A DNA stretch of 64,000 nucleotides from an uncultured Nitrososphaerota archaeon (GCA_963838925.1 CAWISW010000001.1:347745-411744), one strand, 5' to 3'; counted from the first letter of the stretch, positions 1 through 16,900 are shown. The notes: generated by a model not told the origin, from the letters alone. Program-made: numbers and translations.

Positions 1-260
1 ACCGTGGCCAGGCCCATGTCGTGCATGGCTATCGAGGTCGGGATGCCGCCCCTCGACCTGTCGTCCTTCTCCTCCTTGGAGAACGCCCTCCATTCGGGGC
101 CCGTCTCCTCTATCTTTTCCTTTACCACGAACCCGCAGCTGCTGCAAACCAGCTCTCCCCCGGCGTTGTCCACGACCATGGGACCCTTCCCGCACCTGGG
201 GCACTTGTCCAGCGCCTTCTGCAACCTCATCAGCCTCGAGAAATCTCTTTCAGATGACAA
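1..260 (-). CDS. tfb: Transcription initiation factor IIB (TFB), 5' part; runs off the window edge
   Basis: Manual translation of the minus strand: KCPRCGKGPMVVDNAGGELVCSSCGFV (Zn ribbon), then GPEWRAFSKEEKDDRSRGG..HDMGLAT (B-reader). Start at TTG 260 or ATG 230. Confidence 0.92.
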   Translation of the reverse strand, partial: MSSERDFSRLMRLQKALDKCPRCGKGPMVVDNAGGELVCSSCGFVVKEKIEETGPEWRAFSKEEKDDRSRGGIPTSIAMHDMGLAT

Positions 261-374
261 GCAATACACTCCGGTAAGGCGTGAGCCAAACTTGCAAATC
301 TTTTACACCTATTTAGCTTTTGTGGAGAATTAGGCCTTCTGAGGTTCAGGTTTGCATCCGTTTTCTCCTTGGGA

Positions 375-510
375 GAATCGACGGCCAGTGCAGGTTCTGT
401 TAACTCTTCAGCTCAGGCAGTGGGCGAGTCAACTTGCTGGCATCGACTCGGAGGATTAGGGTCTTCCTCGTCCCGTTCCCCGTCACTGCTTCACCTGCCA
501 GCCCTTTCTC
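375..510 (-). ncRNA. Predicted omegaRNA (reRNA) of tnpB copy 1; boundaries approximate
   Basis: 3' region strongly conserved with copy 2. Hairpin CGAGTC..GACTCG at 425-450 whose loop (TGCCAGC in RNA sense) is complementary to GCTGGCA at 496-502 (possible pseudoknot). Conservation ends exactly at the TIR. Confidence 0.6.
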
Positions 511-1714
511 CTCCTCTATCGTGTGCGAGCGACTTTCCTCCTCTCGCCTCTCCGACCGAGGAGAAAGGGAACGGTCGAACCTGGACCGCCCCCTCTCGGA
601 TAGGTTCAGGGCCGCGTTCACGTCCCTGTAAATCCACTCCTTGCACTTCTGGCACCAGAGCATCCTCGCGTGCGCGACATCACCCCTTGCAGGATTGTGG
701 AGCTTCTCCCCACACGCCGAGCACGTCGAGGATGACCCGTAGGTCTCAGACTTTGTCAGCAGAACCACAGTCAGGCCCTTCCATGCTGCCTTGTATTCGA
801 GCATCTTCTTCGCCTTCCGGTGGGGCCACGAGTTGAGCCTGAACCTGTAGCCTGCACCTTGCCCGTTCCCTCTTTGGTACAACCTCCTGATGTCGGTCAG
901 GTCCTCGATAGCAAGCGCAGCCCCTTGCCTCGCCGCGTCATCGACGATATAGTTCGTGGCCGCGTGGAGGATCTGGTCGCTCCTGTGACGGGCCCTACTC
1001 CAGTACTTGCGGGCGAGATTCCTTCGTATCCTGACGTCGTTCCTCTTGAACGATCCGACTATCTCCCTGGTCGTCTGCCTCATCTTGACCAACTTCGTCA
1101 TCTCGACCAAGGTGACGTTTTCTTTATCACCGAACGTGATGTTCTTCTCGTTCCTGTCCAAGCCATAGACTCTTCTTATCTCAACAGGTTCGATGTGCTT
1201 CGAATAGCAGAGCGATAGCGAGTCGGGAGTTATGGTGAGGCTCCTGACCTTCCCCTCTGAGAGCTTCCTGACCGCATATTGATTGAGCTTTATGTCGAAA
1301 TACTTGTCACGTCTCAGCGGGATGAAGAGCCTCCCCTTCATTGTGATGAAGAAACCCGAGATGATACATGAAACCGGTCTCAAAGGCCTGGGATGGGCTG
1401 CTTTGATTCCTCGCTTCTCGCCTTTGTTGCGACTTTGGACGACTGCGCAGGCGCGCGTTATCGACGCGACCTTGTAACAAGAAGGAAACTCGGTGTTCCT
1501 GAGCGTCCGGTAGAATCCCTTCATCCCCTTGCGGTTCTCAATCCCATGTGCTTCGGCGTAGTTGACTGCGTCATAGGTCGCTGTTAGACATTCGTTAAGC
1601 AGACCACGTAGCTGCTCGCTGGAATGCGATTGGGTGACACACTTTGTTGCCCGCAACAATCATCTGGGATGCAATCGTATAAACGCGCCCATGAGCCGAA
1701 GAGTTACCAGAGCC
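393..1714 (-). mobile_element. Non-autonomous tnpB-carrying element with terminal inverted repeats and 8-bp TSD (copy 1)
   Basis: GGTTCTGTTAACTCTTCAGCTCA (393-415) and TGAGCCGAAGAGTTACCAGAGCC (1692-1714) are inverted repeats (20/23). CCAGTGCA is directly repeated at 385-392 and 1715-1722. The only gene inside is tnpB. Confidence 0.9.
400..1659 (-). CDS. tnpB: TnpB/Cas12f-like RNA-guided endonuclease
   Basis: RuvC-I YGLDRNEKN, RuvC-II LAIEDL, Zn finger CSACG..CQKC, RuvC-III RDVNAALN. The stop codon lies inside the right TIR. Confidence 0.9.
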   Translation of the reverse strand: MLRATKCVTQSHSSEQLRGLLNECLTATYDAVNYAEAHGIENRKGMKGFYRTLRNTEFPSCYKVASITRACAVVQSRNKGEKRGIKAAHPRPLRPVSCIISGFFITMKGRLFIPLRRDKYFDIKLNQYAVRKLSEGKVRSLTITPDSLSLCYSKHIEPVEIRRVYGLDRNEKNITFGDKENVTLVEMTKLVKMRQTTREIVGSFKRNDVRIRRNLARKYWSRARHRSDQILHAATNYIVDDAARQGAALAIEDLTDIRRLYQRGNGQGAGYRFRLNSWPHRKAKKMLEYKAAWKGLTVVLLTKSETYGSSSTCSACGEKLHNPARGDVAHARMLWCQKCKEWIYRDVNAALNLSERGRSRFDRSLSPRSERREEESRSHTIEEEKGLAGEAVTGNGTRKTLILRVDASKLTRPLPELKS

Positions 1715-1728
1715 CCAGTGCATCAAGC

Positions 1729-1736
1729 TTTTATAT
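1729..1736 (+). promoter_or_regulatory. TATA box of the membrane protein/wHTH operon
   Basis: TTTTATAT in GC-rich context, ~50 bp upstream of ATG 1787. Confidence 0.55.
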
Positions 1737-1786
1737 CGAGCCCGGCACTTTGTCGCCAGGTCGCGCTCGTGGGCTCAGAGTTGGTC

Positions 1787-2416
1787 ATGTTCGAGAACGC
1801 CCTCCAGTTCATCGGGGCGTTCGTGGCCTTTTCCATCGCCCTCGTCGCATACAAGGGTGTGCGCGAGACGAGCAGCTCCTCGATGCTCAGGCTCGCGGCT
1901 GCCTTCGTCTTCCTCGGGGCCGGGTTCGTCCTCCAGGGGCTGGACAGCGTCGGCGCGTTCGGCAGCATCCCTGGGCTCTCGACCTCCATCGACACGATAA
2001 TGGTCGCCGGCATGTTCCTACAGACGGTGGGCTACTTCTTCTTGGCATTCTCCCACGTCCTGGACGTGGTCGTCTCAAGGCGGCTGGGGCCGCTCCTCGT
2101 GCTCCTCCCGATACTCGCGGTAGGCCAGACCAGCGTGGAGACCGTCCTCCGCAGCCTGTCCTTCTACTTCATACTGTACGGGGTGCTAGAGACGGCGCTC
2201 TCGTATACAAAGTCGAGGAACCCCAACACGCTCTTCATCGCGACCGGGCTGGGCATGCTCGCCGCCGGGTGGTGGGTCTCGCTCGCGGCACCCGACCTCG
2301 TATTGTTAACATTGTTGCAGCTTTTGATGAGAGAAGTTGGACTGATTGCGCTATTCGTCCCAGTCTTGAGATTCTCGTTCAGGAAGCCAGGAGACTTGTT
2401 GAATGCCCCAGTATAG
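1787..2416 (+). CDS. Multi-pass membrane protein (hypothetical, possible sensor)
   Basis: 6-7 hydrophobic segments. ATG 1787 preferred because the upstream part of the ORF overlaps the mobile element end. Confidence 0.7.
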   Translation: MFENALQFIGAFVAFSIALVAYKGVRETSSSSMLRLAAAFVFLGAGFVLQGLDSVGAFGSIPGLSTSIDTIMVAGMFLQTVGYFFLAFSHVLDVVVSRRLGPLLVLLPILAVGQTSVETVLRSLSFYFILYGVLETALSYTKSRNPNTLFIATGLGMLAAGWWVSLAAPDLVLLTLLQLLMREVGLIALFVPVLRFSFRKPGDLLNAPV

Positions 2417-2690
2417 GACCCAGGGCAAGATCATCGCGGACATCCTGGTCACCGCCCGAGACATGAACACCGACGGCCAGGGCGTGGGGATCACCACGCT
2501 GCTCAGGCGCGGGAACGTCTCCTACAGCAGGATGACCAAGCTGATAGTCGACCTTGTGGGAGCGGGCCTCCTTCTCGAGGAGACCATGGAGAAGAACTCA
2601 AAGTATCGCATAAGCGACAAGGGGATGATGTTCCTCCAGGCATACATGCAGTTCGAGGACTTCGCCCAGTCCTACGGATTGAGACTCTAA
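2403..2690 (+). CDS. Winged-HTH transcriptional regulator (archaeal HTH_45-like)
   Basis: YRTQGKIIADIL..ITTLLRRGNVSY..LL..YRISDKG pattern; overlaps the upstream gene. Confidence 0.75.
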   Translation: MPQYRTQGKIIADILVTARDMNTDGQGVGITTLLRRGNVSYSRMTKLIVDLVGAGLLLEETMEKNSKYRISDKGMMFLQAYMQFEDFAQSYGLRL

Positions 2691-2769
2691 GGGCCTCTCT
2701 CGCGGCTTTAGGCTAGCTTTTTTACTGCCTGTAGGTGCTGTCGCGTCCGGAGCGGTCGGCTAGCAAGAA

Positions 2770-3687
2770 ATGATTGGCTTCCTAGGGGCAGGCAGGGTGG
2801 GCGCCCAGGCGGCGCTCGAGGTCGCGTCCGCCGGCATCGACGACGTCACCCTCGTGGACATCCTCCCCGGGCTTGCCGAGGGCGAGGCCATGGACATATC
2901 GCAGAAGATAGCGGAGACCGGCGTCGACGTGGAGGTGAGGGGCTCGACGGACTTCTCCGCGCTCCGCGGTTCCACGGTGGTGGTGATAACCGCCGGGCTG
3001 GCACGCAAACCCGGCATGACCCGGATGGACCTCCTGGAGAAGAACGCGGGGATAGTCTCCGCCGTCGCCAAGGAGGTCGCGAAGCACGCCCCCACGGCGG
3101 TCGCCCTCACGGTGACCAACCCGATGGACGTCATGAACTACGTGGTCCTGAGGAAGACGGGCTTCCCGAAGGGGAGGGTCGTGGGGATGGGCGGGATACT
3201 CGACCTCTCCCGGTTCAAGTCGACCATCTGCGCGATGCTCGACGTCTCGCACTCGTCGATAACCTCGCTGGTGATAGGGGAGCACGGCGAGAGCATGCTC
3301 CCCCTCCCGAGGTTCACCTCGATAGGGGGCGTCCCGCTTTCCATGCTCATGGACGAGACCCAGATCGGGCTGGCCATCGAGACGACCAGGCGCGTCGCGA
3401 TCGACGTGATCTCGAAGAAAGGGGCGACCGTGGACGCGCCGGCGAACGCGGTGGTCAAGATGGTCAAGGCCATCGCTTGGGACCGCAAGGAGGTCATCCC
3501 CGCCTCGGCCTACCTCGAGGGAGAGTACGGGGTCGACGGCCTCTGCATAGGGGTCCCCGTCGTGCTGGGGGCGAGGGGAGTCGAGAGGATACTCCCGCTC
3601 GACCTGAACGAGAGGGAGAAGGCCCAGTTCCATAGGGGCGCCAAGACCATCCGCGAGGGCATAGCCGCGATAGGCGCGGCCCTCTAG
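2770..3687 (+). CDS. mdh: Malate dehydrogenase (LDH-like)
   Basis: GAGRVG, ITAGLARKPGMTRMDLLEKN, TNPMD, GEHGESM. Confidence 0.93.
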   Translation: MIGFLGAGRVGAQAALEVASAGIDDVTLVDILPGLAEGEAMDISQKIAETGVDVEVRGSTDFSALRGSTVVVITAGLARKPGMTRMDLLEKNAGIVSAVAKEVAKHAPTAVALTVTNPMDVMNYVVLRKTGFPKGRVVGMGGILDLSRFKSTICAMLDVSHSSITSLVIGEHGESMLPLPRFTSIGGVPLSMLMDETQIGLAIETTRRVAIDVISKKGATVDAPANAVVKMVKAIAWDRKEVIPASAYLEGEYGVDGLCIGVPVVLGARGVERILPLDLNEREKAQFHRGAKTIREGIAAIGAAL

Positions 3688-3798
3688 CTCCGACCGCAAG
3701 CAAGAACTACGCGGATTGACGAAAACAGCGAGATATGGCTCGCCGTCGCTCATTTCCCCGAATACTTTTATTGCCGGTATGACGGCGTTGGGACGACA

Positions 3799-4977
3799 TT
3801 GCTCATAATAGCACTAGTGAAGGGCGTCCCGGCCAGGCTCACGAAGGTCGTGAGGGTAGACAACATCGTCCAGCGCGACGCGATGGAGATGGTCGTCAAC
3901 CCCAACGACGAGAAGGCCATAGAGGCTGCCGACTTCCTCAAGAGGAAGGTAGGGGGCAAGATAGTCACTCTCAGCATGGGGCCCGACGCCAGGCTCAGGC
4001 CCATCCTCACCCCGCTCTACGGCGCGGAGGCCACGGGGGTGGACGAGGAGATCATACTCAGCGACCCCAAGCTCGCAGGCTCCGACACGGTGGCCACGGC
4101 CTACGCTGTGGGGCATGCAGTCTACAAGATTTACGAGAGGCACGTAGTCCCGTTCGACACCCTGATCAAGCTCCTCACCGATGGAGCCTCCCTCCAGGAG
4201 ATAGAGGCAAAGGCGAGGGAGCTCTACGACCAGAACCTCATCCCCAACAAGGTGTACAACGAGGAGCCGGGTACAAGGACATCGGTGATAGGGCACCTCG
4301 TCAACGGCAACCTCTCGAGGGAAGAGGCCATTCAAAGGCTCAAGACCGAGAGGTCCAACGTAACGAAGTTCGTGATATTCGCAGGGATCAGGACGGCAGA
4401 CGGCGAGACGGGAAGCGTAGGCCCCCAGGTCGCCGAGGTCGTCTCCCAGAAGATGGGGGTGGAGGTACCGCACTCCACATACGTCGAGGAGCTCGACGTC
4501 GACCCCGACACGCTCCGTCTCCACGCCGGCAGGAGGATAGGAAGGTGGATGCAGCGCCTGGAAATCGAGGCCCCCTGCCTGATGACGTTCGCACCAGAGT
4601 ACCAGGCTAAGGAGATAAAGTCGGTAGACTTTGGGAGGGTCATCGAGAACTACTACAAGGGCAAGGTCAAGGAGCAGATGAAGTGGACAGCAGACGCCCT
4701 TGACGCCGACCCGGCCCGCCTAGGCTTCGGCGGCTCCTGCGTCATCGTGGGTCCAGCCATCATTATGGGCGCTCCAGCCTCCCAGAAGACCCTCGACAAG
4801 AGCCTGGTCTTCACCAAGAGCGTCGACAAGACGGCGTGGGAGGGCAAGGAGTACGGCCCGTTCTCAAAAGGCGACGTCGCTGACTCGCTGCCGCAGACTC
4901 TCAAGGACGACCTCTTTGCCAAGGGAGCGCTCGCGACCTACACGCTTCAGATGCTCGGACAGGAGTTGGTGGCATGA
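3799..4977 (+). CDS. fixA: Electron transfer flavoprotein beta subunit (FixA)
   Basis: ALVKGVP, NPNDEKAIEAA, LSMGP, AGSDTVATA, DGETGSVGP. Confidence 0.85.
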   Translation: MLIIALVKGVPARLTKVVRVDNIVQRDAMEMVVNPNDEKAIEAADFLKRKVGGKIVTLSMGPDARLRPILTPLYGAEATGVDEEIILSDPKLAGSDTVATAYAVGHAVYKIYERHVVPFDTLIKLLTDGASLQEIEAKARELYDQNLIPNKVYNEEPGTRTSVIGHLVNGNLSREEAIQRLKTERSNVTKFVIFAGIRTADGETGSVGPQVAEVVSQKMGVEVPHSTYVEELDVDPDTLRLHAGRRIGRWMQRLEIEAPCLMTFAPEYQAKEIKSVDFGRVIENYYKGKVKEQMKWTADALDADPARLGFGGSCVIVGPAIIMGAPASQKTLDKSLVFTKSVDKTAWEGKEYGPFSKGDVADSLPQTLKDDLFAKGALATYTLQMLGQELVA

Positions 4978-6113
4978 GCACCACAGCCCCGGCGGCCACG
5001 ACCTCTGCCAAGGTGACCCTGGCGGACTACAAGGACGTCTGGGTCTTCCTGCAGCGCGACGACGGCCACCTCTCCAACGACTCGCTGGAGCTACTCGCCG
5101 CGGGAAGGAAGGTCGCGGACCAGGCGGGCCAGAAGCTCGTGGGGCTACTGCTCGGGAACCACCTCAGGGGTCTGGCTGAGGAGGCCGTCGACCACGGCGC
5201 CGACGATGTCCTCGTGGTGGACGACCCCGCGCTCCGTACGTACAACACGATGAGGATGATAGACACCCTCGAGGCGATGACGCTGAAGAGGAAGCCCTAT
5301 GCGATAATCTTCCTAGCGACCGAGTTCGGCAGGGAGCTCGCGGCCAGGCTAGCATACAGGGTGAACACAGGAGTCGCGACTGACAACGTGGACTTTGAGG
5401 TCCAGGACTACTTCAACCCGAAGTTCAACGAGATGTTCCCCAAGACCCTTACCCAGGTCAGGCCTGACTTTGGGAGCAGGGTCGCGAAGATCTGGACGCC
5501 ACGCCACAGGCCACAGATAGCGAGCCTGAAGCCAGGGAGCTTCGCACCGCTCCCGCGCAACCCCGCAAGAAGGGCGAGCGCGAAGATCGAAAAGGTGCAG
5601 TTGCCCCGCCCCGGCAAGACCTACCCGCTCACGGTGAAGGAGCTCGTCGAGCTTCCAAAGCCCAATTTCGACCTCGAGCACGCCGACGTTGTCATCGGCC
5701 TCGGGATGGGCATCCTCCGCGGAGCGGACGGCTCTCCGAGGAACCCCATCGACGCCTTCAAGCTCGCCACCGAGCTCAAGGAGCTCATAGAGAGGAAGTG
5801 GGGCCTCAAGACGGAGATAGGGGCTTCGAGGGGGCTGGTCATGGCCAACGTGAAAGCTCTAGAGGGGATAATCACTCGCGACCACGAGCTGGGTCAGACC
5901 GGGACCCTCATCAGTCCGCAGCTCTACATCGCCCTGGGAGTCAGCGGCTCCGCCCCCCACAGGGGAGGGATCAAGGCAAAGAAGATTCTCGCGGTGAATC
6001 CCGACCCCACGGCACCTATCCACCTGGCAGCCCAGTACTCCGTGGTCGCCGACCTCTACGACTTCGTCCCGAAGCTCATCGACACGCTAGAAGCCCTGCC
6101 CGACAAAGCTTGA
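4974..6113 (+). CDS. fixB: Electron transfer flavoprotein alpha subunit (FixB)
   Basis: GRELAARLA, GASR, GQTG..PQLYIALGVSG, AVNPDPTAPI. Confidence 0.88.
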   Translation: MSTTAPAATTSAKVTLADYKDVWVFLQRDDGHLSNDSLELLAAGRKVADQAGQKLVGLLLGNHLRGLAEEAVDHGADDVLVVDDPALRTYNTMRMIDTLEAMTLKRKPYAIIFLATEFGRELAARLAYRVNTGVATDNVDFEVQDYFNPKFNEMFPKTLTQVRPDFGSRVAKIWTPRHRPQIASLKPGSFAPLPRNPARRASAKIEKVQLPRPGKTYPLTVKELVELPKPNFDLEHADVVIGLGMGILRGADGSPRNPIDAFKLATELKELIERKWGLKTEIGASRGLVMANVKALEGIITRDHELGQTGTLISPQLYIALGVSGSAPHRGGIKAKKILAVNPDPTAPIHLAAQYSVVADLYDFVPKLIDTLEALPDKA

Positions 6114-7834: not shown

Positions 7835-7847
7835 ACGCTGCTCGCGC

Positions 7848-9266
7848 CTAGCCGGTGCCGGAGTTGAGCCTCTCGAGCTTGAACGCCGAGTGTATGGCCC
7901 TCACCGTCTCTTTCGCGTCTCTCTCCGCCACGATGAGCGAGATGTTCTGGTTCGAGGAGCCCGACGCGATCATCTTGATGTTTATCCCCCTGGCGGAGAT
8001 CGCCCCGAAGGCCGTGGCCGCCACGCCCTTGGTGGTCCTCAGCGACCCCCCCACTATCGCTACCGCGCTGACGTCGTTCTCCGTGAGTATGTGTCTGTAG
8101 CCGCCCTGACCGAGCAGGGCCAGCTCGAGGGCGTTCACCCCCTTCTCCATCGACGACCTCGCGACAACCATGCTGATGTTCGACTCCGACACGCTCTGGG
8201 AAATCATCAAGACGTTGATGCCGCTTCGGCCCATGACGTCGAATATCCTCGCCGCGCTCCCGGGCTTCCCCACCATGCTCGCGCCCGCCACGGTGATGAT
8301 CGCCACCTCCCTCACAAGCGCCACCGCCTTCACCACGTTCTTCGAGTAGAGCTTGGGGTTCCTCTTCACGACGGTGCCGGGGTCCTTCGGGTGGAAGGTG
8401 TTCCTGAACCTGACGGGGATTCCCTTCTCCGCGACCGGCTCCAGCGTGCGCGGGTGGAGCGCCTTGGCGCCGAAGACCGCCATCTCTCCGGCCTCCTCGT
8501 AGGAGATCTCCCGGAGGACCTTGGCGTTCGGAACGATCCTCGGGTCGGCCGTCATGAGGCCGTCGACGTCGCTCCAGATCCAGACCTCGTCCGCGTCGAT
8601 GGCGGATGCGATTATCGTCCCCGTGAAGTCCGACCCCCCACGGCCGAGGGTGGTCGTGTCCCCGCTCTGGGTGGCCCCGATGTAGCCCGTGATGACCGGG
8701 GTCTTCCCCTCCTCGAGGAGGGGAGCGAGCTTCTCCCTCACCTGGAACTTGGTCACCTCCATGAGGGGCGTGGCGTCGCCGAACCTGTCGTCGGTCATTA
8801 TCCCCGCCTCTCCGCCCGTCATGTAGACGGCGCGCATCCCGCGCTCTATCAGCGCGCCCATGATTATGGGGTTGGAGAGCCTCTCGCCGCACGCGAGGAT
8901 CGCGTCCTTCGACCTGGGGGTCAGCTCCCCGAGCACGGTGCTCCCCCGCGCGAGCTTCTCCAGCTGGCTGAGCGTGACGTTGAGCACCCCGAGCACCTGG
9001 CGCCTCACCGCCTTGTCGCTCACCGTCGCGCTGAGCGCGGCGAGGTGGCTCTTCCTTATCGAGGCGAGCCTCTCCTCAACAGGCTTCTCCAGCCCCTTCG
9101 AGGCGTCGGAGCAGAGCGCGAGGAGCTGGTCTGTGACGTCCCCCATCGCCGAGCAGACGACGACGACGCTGTGGCCCTTCCCGCTGTCCTTGACCCTCTC
9201 CGCGACGTTCTTTATGCGCTCGGCCGACGCGACGGAGCTCCCGCCGAACTTCATGATTATCTTCAT
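7848..9266 (-). CDS. lysC: Aspartate kinase
   Basis: MKFGGSSV, TTLGRGGSD, WSDVDG..ADPR, two ACT domains. Confidence 0.95.
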   Translation of the reverse strand: MKIIMKFGGSSVASAERIKNVAERVKDSGKGHSVVVVCSAMGDVTDQLLALCSDASKGLEKPVEERLASIRKSHLAALSATVSDKAVRRQVLGVLNVTLSQLEKLARGSTVLGELTPRSKDAILACGERLSNPIIMGALIERGMRAVYMTGGEAGIMTDDRFGDATPLMEVTKFQVREKLAPLLEEGKTPVITGYIGATQSGDTTTLGRGGSDFTGTIIASAIDADEVWIWSDVDGLMTADPRIVPNAKVLREISYEEAGEMAVFGAKALHPRTLEPVAEKGIPVRFRNTFHPKDPGTVVKRNPKLYSKNVVKAVALVREVAIITVAGASMVGKPGSAARIFDVMGRSGINVLMISQSVSESNISMVVARSSMEKGVNALELALLGQGGYRHILTENDVSAVAIVGGSLRTTKGVAATAFGAISARGINIKMIASGSSNQNISLIVAERDAKETVRAIHSAFKLERLNSGTG

Positions 9267-9267
9267 C

Positions 9268-10341
9268 TCAGCCCAGACCCCCGCTGATGCCGCTCATGCT
9301 GTAGGCTGAAATCGTCGCTCCCTGCCCGTTGATCTTCCCCCTGATCTCTATCAAGTCTCTCAACAACGACGAGGCGGTCTCGGGGCCTCCCGCCCCCTTC
9401 CCTATTATCACCTTCGGGCCCGAGTACTCGCACTCGAACTCGACGGCGTTGTTCGCGCCGTTTATGCAGAGGGGGTGGTCCCTCTTTATCACCGTGGGCT
9501 CGACGACGAGGCCCCTCTCCGCGGAAACCGACGCTATGAGCCTTATCGCCTTTCCCTTCTTCTTGGTCTTCAGGACCTCCGCTGAGGACATCCCCCTTAT
9601 CCCGCTCACCTTCACGTCCTTGATCCCCGCCTTGCTCAGCTGCAGGTGGTTCGCTGTGATCACCAGCTTGACCGCGCTGTCGTACCCGTCGATGTCCAGG
9701 GAGGGGTCTGCCTCCGCGTACCCCGCCTTCTGCGCCCCGTCCAGCGCCTCGGCGAACGGGACGCCCTGCTGCTCCATCCTAGTGATTATGTAGTTGCAGG
9801 TCCCGTTGAGTATTCCCCTGATCCCGATGAGCTGGTCGCCGACGGAGCAGGTCTTCCCAAAGTCGAGCACCGGCGTCCCCCCTCCCACCGCCCCGCTGAA
9901 CCTCAGCTGGACCCCGTTGTGCCGCGCGAGCTCGTGGAGCGCGTAGTACGCCAGGGAGAGCGGGCCCTTGTTGCACGTTACGACGTGCTTCCTGCTCTCG
10001 AAGGCGGCCTTCATGTGCGAGAACCCGGGCTCCCCGGTCTTGAAGTTGGTTGGCGTGGCCTCGATGAGGACCTCGGCCTCCAGGTCCCTTATCACGTCGG
10101 CGGCGCTACTCTGCCCCTCGGCCCTGCGCCCCTTCGGGCTCACCCTTCCCGTGTCCTTCTTCGACTTCAGCGCTCTCTTGAGGTCGACCCCGTGCTCGTC
10201 GATGAGCCATCCGGAGCTGTCCATGATGCCGACCACCTGGGGCACCAGCCCGTAGTTCGCCGCGAGCTCCTTCTCCTGGGCCATGAGGAGCCGGGCAAAG
10301 CTCTGCCCGACTATCCCGAAGCCGGCCAGGACCAGTCTCAA
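9268..10341 (-). CDS. hom: Homoserine dehydrogenase
   Basis: GFGIVG, HVVTCNKGP, GILNGTCNY, GYAEADPSLDIDGYD, GAGGPETA. Confidence 0.95.
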   Translation of the reverse strand: MRLVLAGFGIVGQSFARLLMAQEKELAANYGLVPQVVGIMDSSGWLIDEHGVDLKRALKSKKDTGRVSPKGRRAEGQSSAADVIRDLEAEVLIEATPTNFKTGEPGFSHMKAAFESRKHVVTCNKGPLSLAYYALHELARHNGVQLRFSGAVGGGTPVLDFGKTCSVGDQLIGIRGILNGTCNYIITRMEQQGVPFAEALDGAQKAGYAEADPSLDIDGYDSAVKLVITANHLQLSKAGIKDVKVSGIRGMSSAEVLKTKKKGKAIRLIASVSAERGLVVEPTVIKRDHPLCINGANNAVEFECEYSGPKVIIGKGAGGPETASSLLRDLIEIRGKINGQGATISAYSMSGISGGLG

Positions 10342-10449
10342 GGACGGTGCCCAGCCCCGGTTCGGCTTTAGGAGTTTCGGTGGTGCGGGCCTGCCTTCGG
10401 AAGCCTTCCGGGAATGGTTAATAGTTCCAAGAGGCCATTTTCACGCGAC

Positions 10450-11802
10450 ATGAGCGCCCCCAAGGAGCGTGCGACATTCCTGACGCAGGACGAGATACCG
10501 ACCTCATGGTACAACATACAGGCGGACCTCCCGGAGCAGCTCCCGCCGCCGCTCGACCCGGGGACGCACAAGCCCATGTCCCCCGAGCCGCTCTTCAGGC
10601 TGTTCCCGAAGGAGCTCGTCGGGCAAGAGGTCTCCCAGGAGAGGTGGATCAAGATCCCCGACGAGGTGCTCGAGGCCTATCGGTGGCTGCCGCGCCCGAC
10701 GCCCCTCTTCCGCGCGTACAAGCTCGAGAACTTCCTGAAGACTCCGGCGAAGATCTACTACAAGTGGGAGGGCGCCAACCCCACGGGGAGCCACAAGCCG
10801 AACACGGCGCTCGCCCAGGCCTATTACAACATGAAGGAGGGCACGAAGAGGCTCTCGACGGAGACGGGCGCCGGTCAGTGGGGCTCCGCGCTCTCCATGG
10901 CGGGCGCCTACTTCGGGCTCAAGGTCCGCGTCTTCATGGTGGCCGCGAGCTACAACCAAAAGCCCGGCAGGAGGACCATGATGGAGACCTGGGGCGCGGA
11001 GTGCGTCTCGTCCCCGAGCAACAAGACCAAGTTCGGCAGGTCCCTCCTCGCGAAGGACCCCAAGGATCCGGGGTCGCTTGGCATCGCGATAAGCGAGGCG
11101 ATTGAAGATGTGCTCGCCGACGACGGCGCGAAGTACAGCCTGGGCTCGGTTTTGAACCACGTCCTGCTCCACCAGACCGTCATCGGGCTGGAGCTGAAGA
11201 AGCAGCTCGAGATGCTCGACGTCACACCAGACATGGTCGTGGGGAACATCGGCGGGGGCTCTAACTTCGGAGGCTTCTGCTTGCCTCTGATGGGCGACAA
11301 GATCTCCAAGAGGCTGCGAATGGACTTCGTCGCCTGCGAGTCGAGCGCCATCCCGCACACCACCAAGGGGAAGTACACCTACGACTTTGGTGACACGGCC
11401 GGGATGACGCCGCTCCTGAAGATGTACACGCTTGGGAAGGACTACAAGACCCCGCCAATCCACGCGGGAGGCCTGAGATACCATGCGATGGCTCCGATAA
11501 TCTCCTACCTCATCAACAAGGGATACATGCGCTCCGTGGCTTTCACCCAGAAGGAGGTCTTCGAGGCCGCCGTGACCTTCGCGAGGACGGAGGGCATCAT
11601 CCCCGCCCCGGAGTCCGCGCACGAGATCAAGTTCGTAATCGACGAGGCGCTAAGGTGCAAGGAGAAGAGGGAGGCCAAGGTCATCGTCTTCAACAACTCG
11701 GGGCATGGGCTGCTCGACCTGAGCGCGTACCAGGCCTACCACGACGGGAAGCTCGAGGACTGGGCGCCGACGAAGATAGAGTACCCGAGCATGGTCGCGT
11801 AG
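10450..11802 (+). CDS. trpB2: Tryptophan synthase beta chain, type 2
   Basis: PTGSHKPNTA (PLP lysine), TETGAGQWG, GGGSN, IHAGGLRYH, PAPESAH, SGHGLLDL. Confidence 0.93.
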   Translation: MSAPKERATFLTQDEIPTSWYNIQADLPEQLPPPLDPGTHKPMSPEPLFRLFPKELVGQEVSQERWIKIPDEVLEAYRWLPRPTPLFRAYKLENFLKTPAKIYYKWEGANPTGSHKPNTALAQAYYNMKEGTKRLSTETGAGQWGSALSMAGAYFGLKVRVFMVAASYNQKPGRRTMMETWGAECVSSPSNKTKFGRSLLAKDPKDPGSLGIAISEAIEDVLADDGAKYSLGSVLNHVLLHQTVIGLELKKQLEMLDVTPDMVVGNIGGGSNFGGFCLPLMGDKISKRLRMDFVACESSAIPHTTKGKYTYDFGDTAGMTPLLKMYTLGKDYKTPPIHAGGLRYHAMAPIISYLINKGYMRSVAFTQKEVFEAAVTFARTEGIIPAPESAHEIKFVIDEALRCKEKREAKVIVFNNSGHGLLDLSAYQAYHDGKLEDWAPTKIEYPSMVA

Positions 11803-11809
11803 TCTGCCA

Positions 11810-13152
11810 AACGGGCGGTGGACCGCCCTCGGCTTCATCCGTGAGGTAGGGCGAATGGGCGCTTAAATCGAATTTGCAGTTTTGGGTTTCGGCCCAATTG
11901 AAGTCAGCTCTCCGGTTTCGTCTCTATCCGAACAGAAAGCAGGAGTGGAGGCTGATAAGGATGGTCGAGGCCGGGCGGCGACTGTGGAACATTGCTCTCT
12001 GCCACAGGAGACTGCGATGGGAGCAGAAGCGACTCTCCACCTCTTACAGCCAACAGTGCTTGATTCTTACTGCAGAGAGGCGCTTAGACCCGTTCTTGAA
12101 AGAGCTGTACTCACAAGCGGGTCAAGAGATACTCAAGCGCCTCGACAGGGCATTCCAGTCGTACTTCGACGGACGGGCAGGATATCCGAAGTTCAAAAAG
12201 TTCTCCGAATCGGGGTCGTTCACGTATCCTCAGGCTTACAAAGGATCTGTAAAGCCAGACATAGTGCGGAGGAGGCTCTTCCTCTCAAAGGTGGGAAATG
12301 TCAAGGTGGTTTTCCACAGAGAACTGCCTTCCGGGAGCGCGAGGTTGAAGACCTGCACCATTGTTAGGGAACCGAATGGCGAATGGTACGCGTCTCTGGT
12401 CTACGAGGTATACAGGGAATGGCCTCAACCGTGTAAGGCGTTTACATCGCCGGTTGGAGTGGATTTAGGACTGAAATCAGTCATAACCACAACCGATGGA
12501 ATCAAGATTGCACACCCTCAGTTCCTCAGGAAATCAGAGAGGCGGCTGAAGCATCTGAATCGAGCGCTTTCCAAAACGCTGAAAGCTTCGAGGAATAGAG
12601 AAAGAGCTCGCATAAAACTTGCGATCTGCTCGTCGACCGTCACGAGACAACGGACAGATTTCAATCAAAAACTGAGCCCATCACTGGTGCGGAAGCACGA
12701 TTTGATTGCCTTTGAGGACCTGAAGGTCAGGAATATGGTCAGGAACCGCGTTGTTGCGAAGTCCATTATAGATGCCGGATGGCATCAGATTCGAATCCTT
12801 ACAGAATACAAGGCAACATGGGCAGGGAAGCTCGTTGTGGGGGTGCCGGCAGCCTACTCGAGCCAGGAATGCTTCTTTTGCGGCACGCTAAACCAGGTTC
12901 CTCTAAGCGTCCGCGTCTTTGACTGCCGAGGTTGCGGCCGGACGTTGGACCGCGACCTAAACGCGGCGTGGATAGTGCTGAAGCGAGGATTCGCTCAGGT
13001 AGGGCAGGACATGCCCGAACTCAAGCCTGGGGAGACAGGACCTCTACCCGTCCCGGCAACGGGACGCGCAAGCCCCGTCGGTGAAGCAGGAACTACACGC
13101 GGCGAGCATCGAGCCGCTGGAATCCCAAAACCTCAGGTGGGAAGGATGTCAC
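11810..13152 (+). mobile_element. IS200/IS605-family (IS1341-like) tnpB-only element; left boundary approximate
   Basis: Subterminal hairpins at 11813-11845 (GGGCGGTGGACCGCCC; CTCGG..CCGTGAG). Right end ..GGATGTCAC. No TIR or TSD seen. Confidence 0.65.
11898..13152 (+). CDS. tnpB: TnpB (IS605 OrfB type with N-terminal HTH); no stop within the element, ORF reads on to 13565
   Basis: RFRLYPN HTH, GYPKFK, VGVDLGL, IAFEDL, SQECFFCG..CRGCG, DRDLNAA. Confidence 0.88.
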
Positions 13153-13568
13153 TTTTTCGACTCGCGCACGTAGTCTTCGAAGATCGCCTTGACCTTGTCG
13201 GCGGCGAGGCCGGAGCCCTCGGTCACCCCCTTGTCGGTGACCTTGATCTTCTCCATCACGATTATGGCCCCTATGTCCTCCCTCACCGAGACCAGCCCGG
13301 GGAACACCCTGTTGAGCCTCTCGCCCAGGGCCTTGAAGTCGAACGGCCTGTCCGTCAGCCTGATCTCGCGGACGTTGTCGCCGTTCATGGCGACCTTGAA
13401 GACGTTGGGCCCCGCCCCGACCACCTTGTCGAGGACGATGTTGAGCCTCTCGTCCGCCCCCACGAGCTGGCCGTTGTACTCCTTCCCATCGGCCGTAACA
13501 ACCACGACGTGCCTGCCAAGGAAGGCGTTCAACTCCTCCCCGAACTTTCGAAACACAACCGATGACAT
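13149..13568 (-). CDS. Sm-like (Lsm) RNA-binding protein, SmAP3-type with C-terminal domain
   Basis: VVVVTADGKEYNGQLVGADERLNIVL Sm1 motif plus C-terminal FDFKALGERL..PGLV..G..A; start at MSSVVF. Confidence 0.85.
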   Translation of the reverse strand: MSSVVFRKFGEELNAFLGRHVVVVTADGKEYNGQLVGADERLNIVLDKVVGAGPNVFKVAMNGDNVREIRLTDRPFDFKALGERLNRVFPGLVSVREDIGAIIVMEKIKVTDKGVTEGSGLAADKVKAIFEDYVRESKK

Positions 13569-13619
13569 CCGATTCGATTCCTGAACCTCCCGAGAGGGTA
13601 TATAGGAATTATTTCGGCC

Positions 13620-14959
13620 GGCGCTGGTAACTCCTCGGCGCATAGGCGCATATATTTGAATAACGCGAAAATGATTATTGCGAGCGACAAGGTCCGTCAC
13701 CCAGTCCCATTCCAGCCAGCAGCTTGCAAGCTTGCTCTCAGAGTGTCTGACGATGACTTGCAACGCCATTCACTACGCCCAAGAACACAAGATCAAGAGC
13801 CGCAGAGGAATGAAAGGGTTCTACAGGACGCTCAAGGACGTCGAGCTGCCTTTGTGCTACAAGGTCGGGTCGATATCGCGGGCTTGCGCCGTCGTCAACA
13901 GTCGCGAAAAGAGCGAGAGGCGAGGAGTCGCGGTCGGCCACCCCAAACCTCTTCGCCCGGCCGTTTGCATCACCTCGGGGTTCTTCATCACGATGAAGGG
14001 GAGGCTCTTCATCCCGTTGAGGCGTGACAGGTATTTCGACGTCCAGCTCAATCAGTACATAATGGACTGGCTCGCCGACAAGAAAGTGAGGAGCCTCACC
14101 ATTGCTTCCGACTCGCTCTCACTCTGCTACTCGGAGGACATCCGTCCAGCCCCTGTCAGGAGGGTCTACGGCGTCGACAGGAACGAGAAGAACGTCGCCT
14201 TCGGGGACAGAGAGAAGGTCATCCTGGTCGAGATGAAGAAGATTGTCAGGGTCAGGCAGACGACGAGGGAGATAGTCGCCTCGTTCAAGAGGAACGACGT
14301 CAGGATGCGAAGGAAGCTCTTCCGCAAGTACTGGAGGAGGGCGAACCACAGGGGCGACCAGATCCTCCACGCGGCCGCGAACTACGTCATCGACGTGGCG
14401 GCGAAAGACGGGGCCGCGCTAGCCATCGAGGACCTAAGGGGCATCAGGAAGCTGTACCGCAGGGGGAGCGGTCAGGGACCTGACTATAGGTTCAGGCTCA
14501 ACTCATGGCCGCACTGGAAGGCCAAGAAGATGCTCGAGTACAAGGCCGCTTGGAAGGGAGTGACGACGATTGCGCTCACGAGGTCTGACACCTATGGATC
14601 CTCGTCGACGTGCTCGGCGTGCGGGGAGAGGCTCCGCAGTCCTGCGAAGGATGATGTCGCGCACCGGAGGATGCTGTGGTGTCAGGCCTGCAGTAGGTGG
14701 ATAGACAGGGATGTGAACGCGCCCCTGAACCTGTCCATGAGGGGGCGGTCGAGGTTTGACCGTTCCCTTCCTTCCCGGTCGGAGCGCAATGAGGAGGAGG
14801 AAAGGCGCTCGCAACAAGCAACTCCCTCTTCCATCCCGACCGTGAAGGAGGAAGGGCTGGCAGGTGAAGCGGTGACGGGGAACGGGACGACTACCCTAAT
14901 CCTCCGAGTCGATGCCAGCAAGTTGACTCGACGGCGTGAGCCGAAGAGTTAACAGAACC
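13620..14959 (+). mobile_element. Non-autonomous tnpB-carrying element with terminal inverted repeats and 8-bp TSD (copy 2)
   Basis: GGCGCTGGTAACTCCTCGGCGCA (13620-13642) and TGAGCCGAAGAGTTAACAGAACC (14937-14959). TTTCGGCC is directly repeated at 13612-13619 and 14960-14967. Confidence 0.9.
13678..14952 (+). CDS. tnpB: TnpB/Cas12f-like RNA-guided endonuclease, paralog of 400-1659
   Basis: YGVDRNEKN, LAIEDL, CSACG..CQAC, DRDVNAPLN; colinear with copy 1. Confidence 0.9.
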   Translation: MRATRSVTQSHSSQQLASLLSECLTMTCNAIHYAQEHKIKSRRGMKGFYRTLKDVELPLCYKVGSISRACAVVNSREKSERRGVAVGHPKPLRPAVCITSGFFITMKGRLFIPLRRDRYFDVQLNQYIMDWLADKKVRSLTIASDSLSLCYSEDIRPAPVRRVYGVDRNEKNVAFGDREKVILVEMKKIVRVRQTTREIVASFKRNDVRMRRKLFRKYWRRANHRGDQILHAAANYVIDVAAKDGAALAIEDLRGIRKLYRRGSGQGPDYRFRLNSWPHWKAKKMLEYKAAWKGVTTIALTRSDTYGSSSTCSACGERLRSPAKDDVAHRRMLWCQACSRWIDRDVNAPLNLSMRGRSRFDRSLPSRSERNEEEERRSQQATPSSIPTVKEEGLAGEAVTGNGTTTLILRVDASKLTRRREPKS

Positions 14960-14977
14960 TTTCGGCCCGAAGTGCGA
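14850..14977 (+). ncRNA. Predicted omegaRNA of tnpB copy 2; boundaries approximate
   Basis: Hairpin 14905-14930 with loop TGCCAGC complementary to GCTGGCA at 14856-14862; same motifs as copy 1. Confidence 0.6.
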
Positions 14978-15040
14978 GAGCGGCGAAAGGTGGCGCGCTT
15001 CCTCGCAAACGTCAATAACGGCCCGTCGTCGGAGGCCCTC

Positions 15041-16882: not shown

Positions 16883-16900
16883 TCCCGGGGAGAGCCCTGC

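What the first reader, a model, noticed from the sequence alone, without database searches (positions are those of the whole stretch)
385..14967. TnpB carried by a TIR/TSD (IS6-like DDE) non-autonomous transposon: a candidate new chassis for an RNA-guided nuclease
Seen: two diverged tnpB-only elements (393-1714, 1322 bp; 13620-14959, 1340 bp). Each has ~23-bp terminal inverted repeats (left GGC(T/G)CTGGTAACTC(T/C)TCGGC, right GGTTCTGTTAACTCTTC(A/G)GCTCA read inward) and a different perfect 8-bp target duplication (TGCACTGG in element orientation; TTTCGGCC). Left/right-specific TIR differences are shared by both copies. The RuvC D/E/D residues and the Zn finger are intact. Known: the usual TnpB hosts (IS200/IS605 with Y1 transposase, IS607 with serine recombinase) have neither TIRs nor TSDs. 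GG(C/T)(A/T)CTGT ends with 8-bp duplications are hallmarks of IS6-family DDE elements (IS26 GGCACTGTTGCAAA, IS257 GGTTCTGTTGCAAA). Inference: TnpB was captured by an IS6-like element and is mobilised in trans, paralleling eukaryotic Fanzor capture by DDE transposons. I cannot confirm novelty without a literature/database search.
Basis: partly seen in the sequence, partly recalled or inferred. Interest (0 to 1): 0.92.

Follow-up and report, generated by a model that had tools for sequence, protein, structure and literature searches.

The report
TnpB nuclease riding IS6-like transposon ends
Two (three genome-wide) small mobile elements in this archaeal genome carry only a TnpB RNA-guided-nuclease gene, yet end in the inverted repeats and 8-base target duplications of the IS6-like DDE transposons living in the same genomes, so they look like hitch-hikers moved by that transposase.

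Summary
The window holds two tnpB-only elements: 393-1714 on the minus strand and 13620-14959 on the plus strand. Each has ~25-bp imperfect inverted ends and a perfect 8-bp duplication. A third copy lies at G000:C2:422318-423654.

Both same-genus genomes examined have these two sites empty, with a single 8-mer homologue.

The same genome holds three IS6-like DDE transposons with GGTTCTGTT ends and 8-bp duplications. A same-genus genome has one whose 18 terminal bases equal the tnpB elements' right end. No Y1, serine-recombinase or ISL3 transposase was found.

Of 43 tnpB loci examined across the class, 21 have such ends plus an 8-bp duplication with at most one mismatch. No locus carried a transposase.

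TnpB is under purifying selection, and its catalytic residues and zinc finger are intact. Its 3' end folds into a covarying RNA-like structure that includes the right inverted repeat.

The best reading is a non-autonomous IS6-like element, moved in trans, with a TnpB/omega-RNA cargo. Mobilisation and RNA guidance are inferred, not shown.

Solo TnpBs on DDE transposon ends were described in 2023 (IS630 and others). IS6 is not named in the text I could read. I rate this a new variant of a known kind, of moderate interest.

The parts
385..392 (.). Target-site duplication of el1, copy at the low side (CCAGTGCA)
   Evidence: The identical 8-mer stands at 1715-1722. Same-genus G406 and G412 have a single homologue at the empty site.
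393..1714 (-). el1, a tnpB-only element of 1322 bp
   Evidence: Homology with el2 and el3 begins and ends exactly here.
393..417 (-). Right-end inverted repeat of el1 (3' of tnpB); reads GGTTCTGTTAACTCTTCAGCTCAGG inward
400..1659 (-). tnpB ORF of el1 (419 aa, TTG start); the stop lies 7 nt before the element end
393..594 (-). Candidate omega-RNA scaffold of el1, overlapping the 3' end of the ORF and the right repeat
   Evidence: Consensus fold with compensatory changes. Synonymous differences are lower in the last 55 codons.
1690..1714 (-). Left-end inverted repeat of el1; reads GGCTCTGGTAACTCTTCGGCTCATG inward
1715..1722 (.). Target-site duplication of el1, second copy
13612..13619 (.). Target-site duplication of el2 (TTTCGGCC)
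   Evidence: A single homologue stands in G406 (TTTCATCC) and in G412 (TTTCAACC).
13620..14959 (+). el2, a tnpB-only element of 1340 bp
   Evidence: In two soil-metagenome runs, 4 and 2 contigs stop matching exactly at 14959.
13620..13644 (+). Left-end inverted repeat of el2
13678..14952 (+). tnpB ORF of el2 (424 aa, TTG start)
14740..14959 (+). Candidate omega-RNA scaffold of el2. Its last stem pairs GTTGACT with AGTTAAC of the right repeat; the 7-nt tip stays unpaired.
14935..14959 (+). Right-end inverted repeat of el2
14960..14967 (.). Target-site duplication of el2, second copy; also the presumed start of the guide
   Evidence: The guide role is an inference.

Best explanation
el1 and el2, together with el3 elsewhere in the genome, are non-autonomous members of an IS6-like DDE transposon family of Nitrososphaeria.

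Each keeps the family's ~25-bp terminal inverted repeats. The consensus reads GGTTCTGTYAAsTy..CGG. Each is flanked by the 8-bp duplication that a staggered DDE cut leaves. In place of the transposase each carries one cargo, an intact TnpB nuclease gene.

The 3' end of that gene, together with the right inverted repeat, encodes a structured RNA that is the likely omega-RNA.

The elements are moved in trans by the long IS6-like transposase (383-406 aa, with an N-terminal zinc-binding extension). That transposase is encoded on separate elements with homologous ends.

Transcription running out of the right end would add the duplicated 8-mer and the flank as the guide. TnpB could then cut unoccupied copies of the site.

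What is shown: the boundaries, the duplications, the empty sites, the homology of the ends with transposase-bearing elements, the intact and selected TnpB, and a covarying fold. What is inferred: trans-mobilisation, the existence and 3' end of the RNA, and any guided cleavage.
For: 1. Discrete insertions. All 3 copies in G000 have perfect and different 8-bp duplications. Both sites are empty in both same-genus genomes examined, G406 and G412. Each has one homologue of the 8-mer, 5-6 of 8 bases alike, on flanks that are 71-83% identical.

2. Breadth. Of 43 tnpB loci examined, 21 have GG[TC]TCTG-type inverted ends plus an 8-bp duplication with at most 1 mismatch. The duplication is perfect in 17. 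One of the 21 (L029) has only ~10 matching terminal bases. These loci come from 17 genomes, and TnpB pairwise identity is 27-78%.

3. Partner elements. G000 has 4 PF13610 genes, and their best NCBIfam hit is the IS6 transposase. Three lie in elements with GGTTCTGTTC ends and perfect 8-bp duplications:
- C2:509147-511129, duplication CTTTTTCG
- C3:179310-181693, duplication AGCATAAC
- C3:395264-398037, duplication TTACAAAC

4. A close in-genus partner. G412 has a 4626-bp element with a perfect duplication. Its transposase is 60% identical to G000's. Its first 18 terminal bases equal the right end of el1 and el2.

5. Shared consensus. The 25-nt consensus of 19 tnpB right ends, 19 left ends and 20 IS6-like ends is nearly the same. 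Over positions 9-20 the best identity is 9.16 of 12, against 5.50 for shuffles (maximum 6.37 of 200).

6. No other candidate transposase. PF01797 (Y1), PF00239 (serine recombinase) and PF01610 (ISL3) gave no match in G000. PF00872 hit only weakly, inside the IS6-like genes.

7. Co-occurrence. PF13610 is present in 39 of 54 genomes with this TnpB, against 154 of 347 without. I counted this by hand; related genomes are not independent.

8. Same target context. An all-A/T hexamer lies within 25 nt of the duplication on the left-end side in 5 of 6 G000 elements (3 tnpB, 3 IS6-like). It lies on the right-end side in 0 of 6. The background is 2.2% for all positions and 8.1% outside long ORFs.

9. 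Cargo. The catalytic D/E/D residues are kept in 15, 14 and 14 of 15 proteins, and the cysteines in 12-14 of 15. dN/dS is 0.24-0.31 among the three copies.

10. RNA. The consensus fold has 42 pairs, 14 of them with compensatory changes. The last stem pairs with the right repeat and changes along with it. In 12 of 15 single-sequence folds, repeat positions 8-20 form the 3' arm of a hairpin. Synonymous differences roughly halve in the last 55 codons.
Against: - No experiment or read evidence shows movement by the IS6-like transposase.
- In G000 itself the resident IS6-like ends match the tnpB ends at only about 17 of 22 bases (my count). The near-identical partner is in another genome of the genus.
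- The three copies are 77-82% identical, so they are old.
- 15 of 54 TnpB-positive genomes showed no PF13610. Most of these are fragmented assemblies that are 89-99% complete.
- No element carrying both transposase and tnpB was found in any locus examined (positions). A capture event is therefore not directly seen.
- 22 of 43 loci lacked a clear left repeat or duplication by my scripts. 11 of those still have the right-end motif. 2 have repeats but no duplication.
- No conserved motif that could serve as a TAM stands directly upstream of the duplications.
- The NCBIfam TnpB and IS6 scores are mostly under their cut-offs.
- Rfam has no match.
Confidence: 0.78

Rival explanations
1. These are relics. 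They arose on an IS6-like chassis long ago, but in this genome they no longer move. TnpB persists for another reason, such as a host-beneficial or selfish nuclease function.
For: The copies are 77-82% identical. The resident IS6-like ends differ from the tnpB ends at about 5 of 22 positions. Left-end tips are degenerate in many relatives, while right ends are kept. 15 of 54 TnpB-positive genomes have no PF13610 match.
Against: The duplications are still perfect in all 3 G000 copies. Both insertions are absent from two same-genus genomes, so they are lineage-specific. G408:C1:52913-54143 has 24/24 identical repeats and a perfect duplication. Six metagenome contigs diverge exactly at the right end, so other insertion sites exist in the same community.
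Confidence: 0.25
2. These are ordinary IS200/IS605 (IS1341-group) or IS607 tnpB elements moved by a Y1 or serine transposase. The repeats and duplications are coincidence.
For: TnpB is usually found there, which is established knowledge. PMC3119063 (passages) describes archaeal IS1341-type elements as lacking inverted repeats and duplications. A hairpin is present at the right end.
Against: Perfect 8-bp duplications were found at 17 elements, each with a chance of 1/65,536. ~25-bp inverted ends are shared with DDE elements. G000, at 87% completeness, has no PF01797 or PF00239 match. The left end shows no hairpin signal, with a median z of 0.08.
Confidence: 0.02
3. The elements are autonomous. 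TnpB itself, or an unrecognised host enzyme, makes the staggered cut and inserts the element.
For: No transposase lies in cis in any locus. Some TnpB-positive genomes lack PF13610.
Against: The ends are homologous over ~25 nt to those of elements that encode a DDE transposase. Transposase-free short elements with the same ends and perfect duplications exist (502 and 763 bp), so the ends move without TnpB. That TnpB is an RNA-guided nuclease not needed for transposition is recalled from the literature, not tested here.
Confidence: 0.04
4. A different DDE family with 8-bp duplications, such as ISL3 or IS256, is the mobiliser.
For: 8-bp duplications and GG-starting repeats are not unique to IS6. 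This is recalled, not tested.
Against: G000 has no PF01610 match. PF00872 hits only weakly (20 and 16 bits), and inside the IS6-like genes. The transposase-bearing elements with matching ends carry PF13610, with NF033587 as the best family.
Confidence: 0.03

Closest known systems
DDE-associated TnpB branches (DDE-1 to DDE-6) and solo TnpBs with the same ends; Altae-Tran et al. 2023, PMC10691335 (section 9 read in full)
   Same: A prokaryotic TnpB sits inside a transposon with inverted terminal repeats. Its 3' end is close to the transposon end. Solo tnpB copies bear the ends of transposase-bearing elements, which suggests trans-mobilisation.
   Different: The only DDE family named in the text is IS630. 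A 2026 review lists ISL2, IS630 and IS1031. 'IS6' as a whole word occurs 0 times in the main text. In those cases TnpB and the transposase are co-encoded; here no co-encoding locus was found.
Fanzor1 and Fanzor2* on eukaryotic TIR/TSD transposons; Bao & Jurka 2013, PMC3627910 (listing and abstract only); Yoon et al. 2023, PMC10711439 (passages)
   Same: A TnpB-family nuclease rides as cargo on cut-and-paste-type elements with inverted repeats and duplications. Non-autonomous copies encode only the nuclease. The repeat is predicted to be part of the guide-RNA scaffold, as in the stem found here.
   Different: Those are eukaryotic or viral hosts and other transposon superfamilies. There the duplication is also folded into the scaffold. 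Here the 8-mer is different at every site, so it can only be guide or spacer.
IS6 (IS26) family; Varani et al. 2021, PMC7986276 (passages)
   Same: 8-bp target repeats, short inverted repeats and a PF13610-type DDE transposase. Longer clades with an extra zinc finger or N-terminal domain are known. Two MITEs and one member with a passenger gene (ISDsp3) are known.
   Different: The review lists archaeal members only from Halobacteria, Thermococcales, Methanococcales and Sulfolobales, lists a single passenger-carrying member, and mentions no TnpB. The elements here are 1983-4626 bp and carry passengers. NCBIfam IS6 scores are 99-142 bits against a cut-off of 125, with 1 of 4 above it.
IS1341-group tnpB-only elements of IS200/IS605
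   Same: One gene (tnpB), about 1.3 kb, non-autonomous, with the likely guide RNA at the 3' end.
   Different: Those have no inverted repeats and no duplications, and depend on a Y1 transposase (PMC3119063, passages). All three points are contradicted here.

Membership tests
TnpB (OMEGA effector) | RuvC-I D, RuvC-II E and RuvC-III D catalytic residues | tested here: met
   D 15/15, E 14/15 and D 14/15 in an alignment of proteins from 15 bounded elements. All are present in el1-el3.
TnpB (OMEGA effector) | TNB / zinc-ribbon domain with four cysteines | tested here: met
   PF07282 at 55 and 51 bits against a 26.3-bit cut-off. Cysteines kept in 12-14 of 15 proteins.
TnpB (OMEGA effector) | Score over the curated NCBIfam cut-off for guided_TnpB (NF040570) | tested here: not met
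   75.1 and 69 bits against a cut-off of 100. It is still the best-scoring family. The best solved relative has E = 4e-8, over the C-terminal part only. This is a divergent member.
TnpB (OMEGA effector) | Omega-RNA encoded at the 3' end, running to the element's right end | tested here: inconclusive
   A covarying fold has 14 of 42 pairs with compensatory changes. A right-end hairpin appears in 12 of 15 elements. Synonymous change is lower in this stretch. There is no RNA data and no Rfam family.
TnpB (OMEGA effector) | RNA-guided, TAM-dependent DNA cleavage | not testable with these tools
   This needs a biochemical or interference assay.
IS6 family (partner elements with transposase) | IS6-type DDE transposase | tested here: met
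   PF13610 scores over its cut-off in 4 of 4 genes and in the G412 gene. NF033587 is the best NCBIfam family for all 4. Only 1 of 4 is over its 125-bit cut-off, and one scores 124.8.
IS6 family (partner elements with transposase) | 8-bp target duplication | tested here: met
   The duplication is perfect in 5 transposase-bearing elements: three in G000, L054 in G152 and the G412 element. The feature is taken from PMC7986276.
IS6 family (partner elements with transposase) | Short terminal inverted repeats of the family's type | tested here: inconclusive
   Repeats are present and begin GGTTCTGT. That this matches IS26/IS257 ends is recalled. The review's logo is a figure, and the string does not occur in its text.
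IS6 family (partner elements with transposase) | About 0.8 kb with a single ORF | tested here: not met
   The elements are 1970-4626 bp and carry passenger ORFs. The review does list longer clades h and i.
IS6 family (partner elements with transposase) | Cointegrate-forming transposition | not testable with these tools
   This needs a genetic assay.
Non-autonomous derivative of that IS6-like family (the tnpB elements) | Ends homologous to the autonomous elements, the same duplication length, and no transposase | tested here: met
   ends; 8 bp; no transposase in loci L005-L036.
IS200/IS605 (IS1341 group) | No inverted repeats, no duplication, and a Y1 transposase in the genome | tested here: not met
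   Repeats and duplications are present. PF01797 gave no match in G000, which is 87% complete.
IS607 | Serine recombinase, no repeats and no duplications | tested here: not met
   PF00239 gave no match in G000. Repeats and duplications are present.
DDE-associated TnpB branches of Altae-Tran 2023 | TnpB co-encoded with a DDE transposase between inverted repeats, in at least some members | tested here: not met
   None of the loci searched by tblastn had one (L005-L036). No TnpB and PF13610 matches lie close together in the lists. Those lists are truncated, so a rare composite may exist.
DDE-associated TnpB branches of Altae-Tran 2023 | Placement in one of their named branches | not testable with these tools

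The most novel reading that the evidence does not exclude
A whole, old clade of active TnpB nucleases in Nitrososphaeria lives on an IS6-like chassis, a transposon type thought to copy itself without excising. Its right inverted repeat serves twice: as the transposase site in DNA and as the last stem of the omega-RNA.

With no excision there is nothing to restore. TnpB would then act as a drive against empty alleles or competitors. Each insertion would write its own 8-mer plus flank as the guide. The family's oriented insertion a few bases from TATA-like boxes would supply the AT-rich context the nuclease needs.
Probability: 0.2. Interest if true: 0.8.

Novelty: new variant of a known kind. 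Interest (0 to 1): 0.56.

Why it matters
TnpB's accepted role is to cut the scar left when an IS605- or IS607-type element excises, so that the element is copied back.

A large archaeal clade of intact, selected TnpBs on the ends of an IS6-like DDE transposon does not fit that picture in a simple way. If this family behaves like IS26, it does not excise. That makes the question 'what is TnpB for on a DDE transposon?' testable in a prokaryote, beside the eukaryotic Fanzor cases.

There are practical consequences too:
- These genes are likely to be mis-filed as IS200/IS605 elements.
- Their true boundaries are easy to call from the repeat plus the 8-bp duplication.
- They are compact, divergent nucleases whose guide scaffold includes a transposon repeat.

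Tried and rejected
- **Empty-site reads.** Contigs of three soil-metagenome runs laid on window 1-17000 showed no joint skipping either element. These are contigs only, so this is no evidence either way.
- **RNA evidence.** No RNA holder was listed for the stretch.
- **Rfam.** No match at E up to 1 on the loci holding el2 and el3.
- **Composite element.** I looked for transposase plus tnpB within one pair of repeats. tblastn of three G000 transposases against loci L005-L036 gave nothing. By eye there are no neighbouring matches.
- **Fourth IS6-like gene of G000** (C2:411369-412277, 302 aa). No ends were found by the inverted-repeat search or the motif scans.
- **A TAM-like motif** directly upstream of the duplications. 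No consensus appeared among 15 sites.
- **Strict repeat script** (16 nt, at most 4 mismatches). It missed elements with degenerate left tips, so I added a right-end-anchored search.
- **Short inverted pairs of the end motif.** Four of the eight examined (460, 468, 586 and 1005 bp) had no duplication and are not counted as elements.
- **Supplements of Altae-Tran 2023.** These were closed. Whether one of their DDE branches is IS6-like stays open.
- **Literature searches.** 'TnpB' with 'IS6 family' (whole word) gave 6 papers, none on this. 'TnpB' with Thaumarchaeota, Nitrososphaer* or ammonia-oxidizing archaea gave 1 paper each; none is on this, judged from title and abstract.
- **Structure prediction, complex prediction and the large protein searches** were not run. 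They would not have changed the reading.

Full report
**1.

- el1 is window 393-1714 (1322 bp, tnpB on the minus strand). It is flanked by CCAGTGCA at 385-392 and 1715-1722.
- el2 is window 13620-14959 (1340 bp, plus strand). It is flanked by TTTCGGCC at 13612-13619 and 14960-14967.
- Similarity between the copies starts and stops exactly at these ends.
- BLAST of both elements against the whole genome found a third full copy at C2:422318-423654 (1337 bp), flanked by TAAGAAGG. The genome is G000: 1.84 Mb, 3 contigs, 61% G+C, 87% complete.
- The copies are 77-82% identical in DNA.
- Their inverted ends match at 21, 18 and 20 of 25 positions, by my count on the strings printed.

**2. The cargo is a divergent but intact TnpB.**

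- Both window proteins (419 and 424 aa, TTG starts) hit Pfam PF07282 only.
- In NCBIfam the best family is guided_TnpB, at 75 and 69 bits. This is under its 100-bit cut-off.
- The nearest solved structure matches only the C-terminal part, at E = 4e-8.
- I aligned the proteins of 15 bounded elements, which are 27-78% identical pairwise. RuvC-I D is kept in 15/15, RuvC-II E in 14/15, RuvC-III D in 14/15, and the four cysteines in 12-14/15.
- Among the three G000 copies dN/dS is 0.24-0.31, so the protein is under purifying selection.

**3. The insertions are real and lineage-specific.**

- Searching the flanks in 20 genomes of the same family found the orthologous places in both same-genus genomes.
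- In G406 the two flanks of el2 lie 65 nt apart. The place reads ...GGGTATATAGGAATTCTTTCATCCCCCGGG..., with one TTTCATCC where G000 has TTTCGGCC twice.
- The flanks of el1 lie 39 nt apart in G406, with one CTCGTGCA against CCAGTGCA in G000.
- G412 is likewise empty at both places, with TTTCAACC and CCCCTCCA and no end-like motif in the interval.
- The 8-mers match at 5-6 of 8 bases, on flanks that are 71-83% identical. This is what divergence would give.
- Contigs of two soil-metagenome runs (4 and 2 contigs) match el2 up to exactly 14959 and then run on into unlike sequence. Relatives of the element therefore sit at other sites in that community. No contig joined across an empty site.

**4. 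The genome holds IS6-like transposons with the same kind of ends.**

- PF13610 (DDE_Tnp_IS240) is found in four genes of G000.
- For all four the best NCBIfam family is the IS6 transposase, at 124.8, 101.4, 98.9 and 141.7 bits against a cut-off of 125. An IS1/IS1595-type zinc domain lies upstream.
- Three of them (383-398 aa) lie in elements with clear ends:
  - C2:509147-511129: 1983 bp, ends GGTTCTGTTCAA..., duplication CTTTTTCG.
  - C3:179310-181693: 2384 bp, duplication AGCATAAC.
  - C3:395264-398037: 2774 bp, duplication TTACAAAC.
- In each, the transposase stop lies a dozen or so bases (12-28) inside one end, much as the tnpB stop does. The rest of each element holds passenger ORFs.
- By my count, the tnpB right end and the C2 element's end share 17 of 22 bases.
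- G000 gave no match to Y1 (PF01797), serine recombinase (PF00239) or ISL3 (PF01610) transposases. IS256 (PF00872) hit only weakly, and inside the IS6-like genes.

**5. A near-identical partner exists in the genus.**

- A motif scan of five family genomes gave inverted pairs of the end motif. I examined 8 pairs, and four had perfect 8-bp duplications:
  - a 4626-bp element in G412;
  - a 1231-bp element in G408;
  - two short elements, of 763 bp (G413) and 502 bp (G414).
- The G412 element has ends GGTTCTGTTAACTCT[C/T]CGTCATCG, so its first 18 bases equal the right end of el1 and el2. It carries a 406-aa transposase that is 60% identical to G000's, plus an 804-aa N6-methylase / restriction-like passenger.
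- The G408 element is another tnpB-only element, with 24/24 identical repeats.
- The other four pairs had no duplication and are not counted.

**6. The association is wide and old.**

- P0002 found relatives at E ≤ 1e-30 in 54 of 401 genomes drawn from the class, G000 included. It also found two named MAG records, one titled Nitrososphaerales archaeon.
- I examined 43 tnpB loci in all: 3 in G000, 2, 29, 8, and 1.
- 21 of the 43 have GG[TC]TCTG-type inverted ends plus an 8-bp duplication with at most one mismatch. The duplication is perfect in 17. One of the 21 (L029) has only about 10 matching terminal bases.
- The 21 come from 17 genomes.
- The other 22 break down as follows:
  - 2 have repeats but no duplication (L024, L030).
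  - 11 show only the right-end motif, or are cut by a contig end at the left.
  - 9 show nothing my scripts could find; two of these loci are cut.
- Four rows come from genomes the tool flags as unpublished: L035 (perfect duplication), L024, L036 and L020. Without them the counts are 20 of 39, with 16 perfect.
- No locus from L005 to L036 holds an IS6-like transposase.

**7. The ends of the two kinds of element are homologous beyond the tip.**

- Consensus of 19 tnpB right ends: GGTTCTGTtAAGTcTTCGGgTGATG.
- Consensus of 19 tnpB left ends: GGTTCTGTTAAGTctTCGGgTGATg.
- Consensus of 20 ends next to IS6-like transposase genes in 7 genomes: GGTTCTGTTAAaTTgaCGGGacATg.
- Over positions 9-20, each tnpB right end matches its best IS6-like end at 9.16 of 12 positions on average. 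Shuffles give 5.50, with a maximum of 6.37 in 200.
- The right-end tip is invariant GG, while left-end tips vary.
- PF13610 occurs in 193 of 401 class genomes. By hand count it is in 39 of 54 with this TnpB and in 154 of 347 without. Leaving out the five unpublished genomes gives 35/50 and 153/346.
- Related genomes are not independent, so I read this as description only. Fifteen TnpB-positive genomes show no such transposase.

**8. An RNA-like structure ends in the right repeat.**

- The last ~90 nt before the right repeat are far better conserved than the rest of the element.
- A consensus fold of the last 230 nt of seven elements gives 42 pairs, 14 of them with compensatory changes. The last stem pairs GTTGACT with AGTTAAC inside the repeat. 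In L008 and L009, where the repeat differs, the partner differs too.
- Folded singly, 12 of 15 elements put repeat positions 8-20 in the 3' arm of a hairpin and leave the 6-7-nt tip free. The median z is -1.3 at the right end and 0.08 at the left end.
- Synonymous differences fall from 0.35-0.50 to 0.19-0.25 in the last 55 codons.
- This fits an omega-RNA that overlaps the ORF end. It also parallels the Fanzor guide RNAs, in which the repeats are predicted to be part of the scaffold (PMC10711439, passages).
- There are no RNA data and no Rfam match, so the RNA is inferred.

**9. How it most likely works.**

- Shown: these are bounded insertions of a non-autonomous element, and their ends belong to the IS6-like family present in these genomes.
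- Inferred (about 0.8): that family's transposase moves them in trans. The short elements of 502 and 763 bp show that the ends move without any cargo.
- Inferred (about 0.5): transcripts leaving the right end carry the 8-mer and the flank as guide, and TnpB cuts unoccupied sites.
- No TAM-like motif stands directly upstream of the duplications.
- If the family transposes like IS26, without excision, the usual 'restorative homing' rationale does not apply. That IS26 behaves this way is established knowledge of the family (PMC7986276); it was not tested here. This mismatch is the open question.

**10. Compared with what is known.**

- Altae-Tran et al. 2023 report six DDE-associated TnpB branches, all with inverted terminal repeats. 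[quoted passage not shown] Only IS630 is named (PMC10691335; section 9 read in full, other passages by search).
- A 2026 review lists ISL2, IS630 and IS1031 (PMC13565253, passages).
- The 2021 IS6 review knows one passenger-carrying member, two MITEs, no TnpB and no Nitrososphaeria (PMC7986276, passages).
- My literature searches found nothing on TnpB with the IS6 family or with these archaea.
- I therefore rate the finding a new variant of a known kind. The concept is in print. What appears new is the IS6-like chassis, its spread in this class and the absence of any cis-linked form.

**11. Verdict.**

Interest: 0.56.

Noticed in passing
Left-end flanks of el1, el2 and el3 (window 1723-1747 and 13587-13611) and of the three IS6-like elements of G000: A TATA-like, all-A/T hexamer lies 4-15 nt from the duplication, always on the left-end side (upstream of tnpB or of the transposase). 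It is found in 5 of 6 elements on that side and in 0 of 6 on the right-end side. The background is 2.2% for all positions and 8.1% outside long ORFs. By eye it also holds for L074, L078, L082 and the G412 4.6-kb element, but not for L071 or the G408 1231-bp element. The criterion was framed after seeing the data. This may be an oriented, promoter-proximal target preference of this transposon family.
   Followed up: partly
window 11874-13565 (+): A second, canonical TnpB of 563 aa (HTH_OrfB_IS605, OrfB_IS605 and TNB domains) ends 54 nt before el2. Part of it is multi-copy in genomes of the family, at ~80% identity. G000 holds 8 TNB-domain genes in all. One of them, near C2:546487, has an IS6-type right end but no duplication was found.
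   Followed up: partly
window 13590-15060: el2 sits between a TATATA box and the start of the downstream PMT-family glycosyltransferase gene (14936-16882). In G406 the box and that gene are contiguous. The gene is now 1.35 kb from that box and may depend on read-through from the element.
   Followed up: no
G000:C2:509147-511129, C3:179310-181693, C3:395264-398037; L128 (G412:C1:1251536-1256161): The IS6-like elements of this lineage are long (1983-4626 bp) and carry passenger ORFs. The G412 one carries an 804-aa N6-methylase with HSDR_N and Eco57I-like parts, a restriction-modification-like cargo. The 2021 IS6 review lists only one passenger-carrying member.
   Followed up: partly
L124 (G413:C2:131053-131815) and L127 (G414:C42:17636-18137): These are short elements of 763 and 502 bp with the same end type and perfect 8-bp duplications. 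They look like MITE-like members of the family.
   Followed up: partly
Loci L014, L015, L018, L019, L022, L031, L032, L036, L073, L079: The right end (...ACAGAACC just after the tnpB stop) is kept where no left repeat can be recognised. Across bounded elements the right tip is invariant GG, while the left tip varies. The right end may be held by a second constraint, namely the RNA.
   Followed up: partly
window 14959: In the two soil-metagenome runs that hold this stretch, 4 and 2 contigs match up to 14959 and then diverge with differing sequences. Close relatives of el2 therefore sit at other sites in that community.
   Followed up: no
window 1723-13611: The 11.9 kb between the two inverted copies holds housekeeping genes: malate/lactate dehydrogenase, ETF subunits, an FAD oxidoreductase, aspartate kinase, homoserine dehydrogenase and a PLP enzyme. 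Each copy has its own duplication, so the pair is not a compound transposon.
   Followed up: yes
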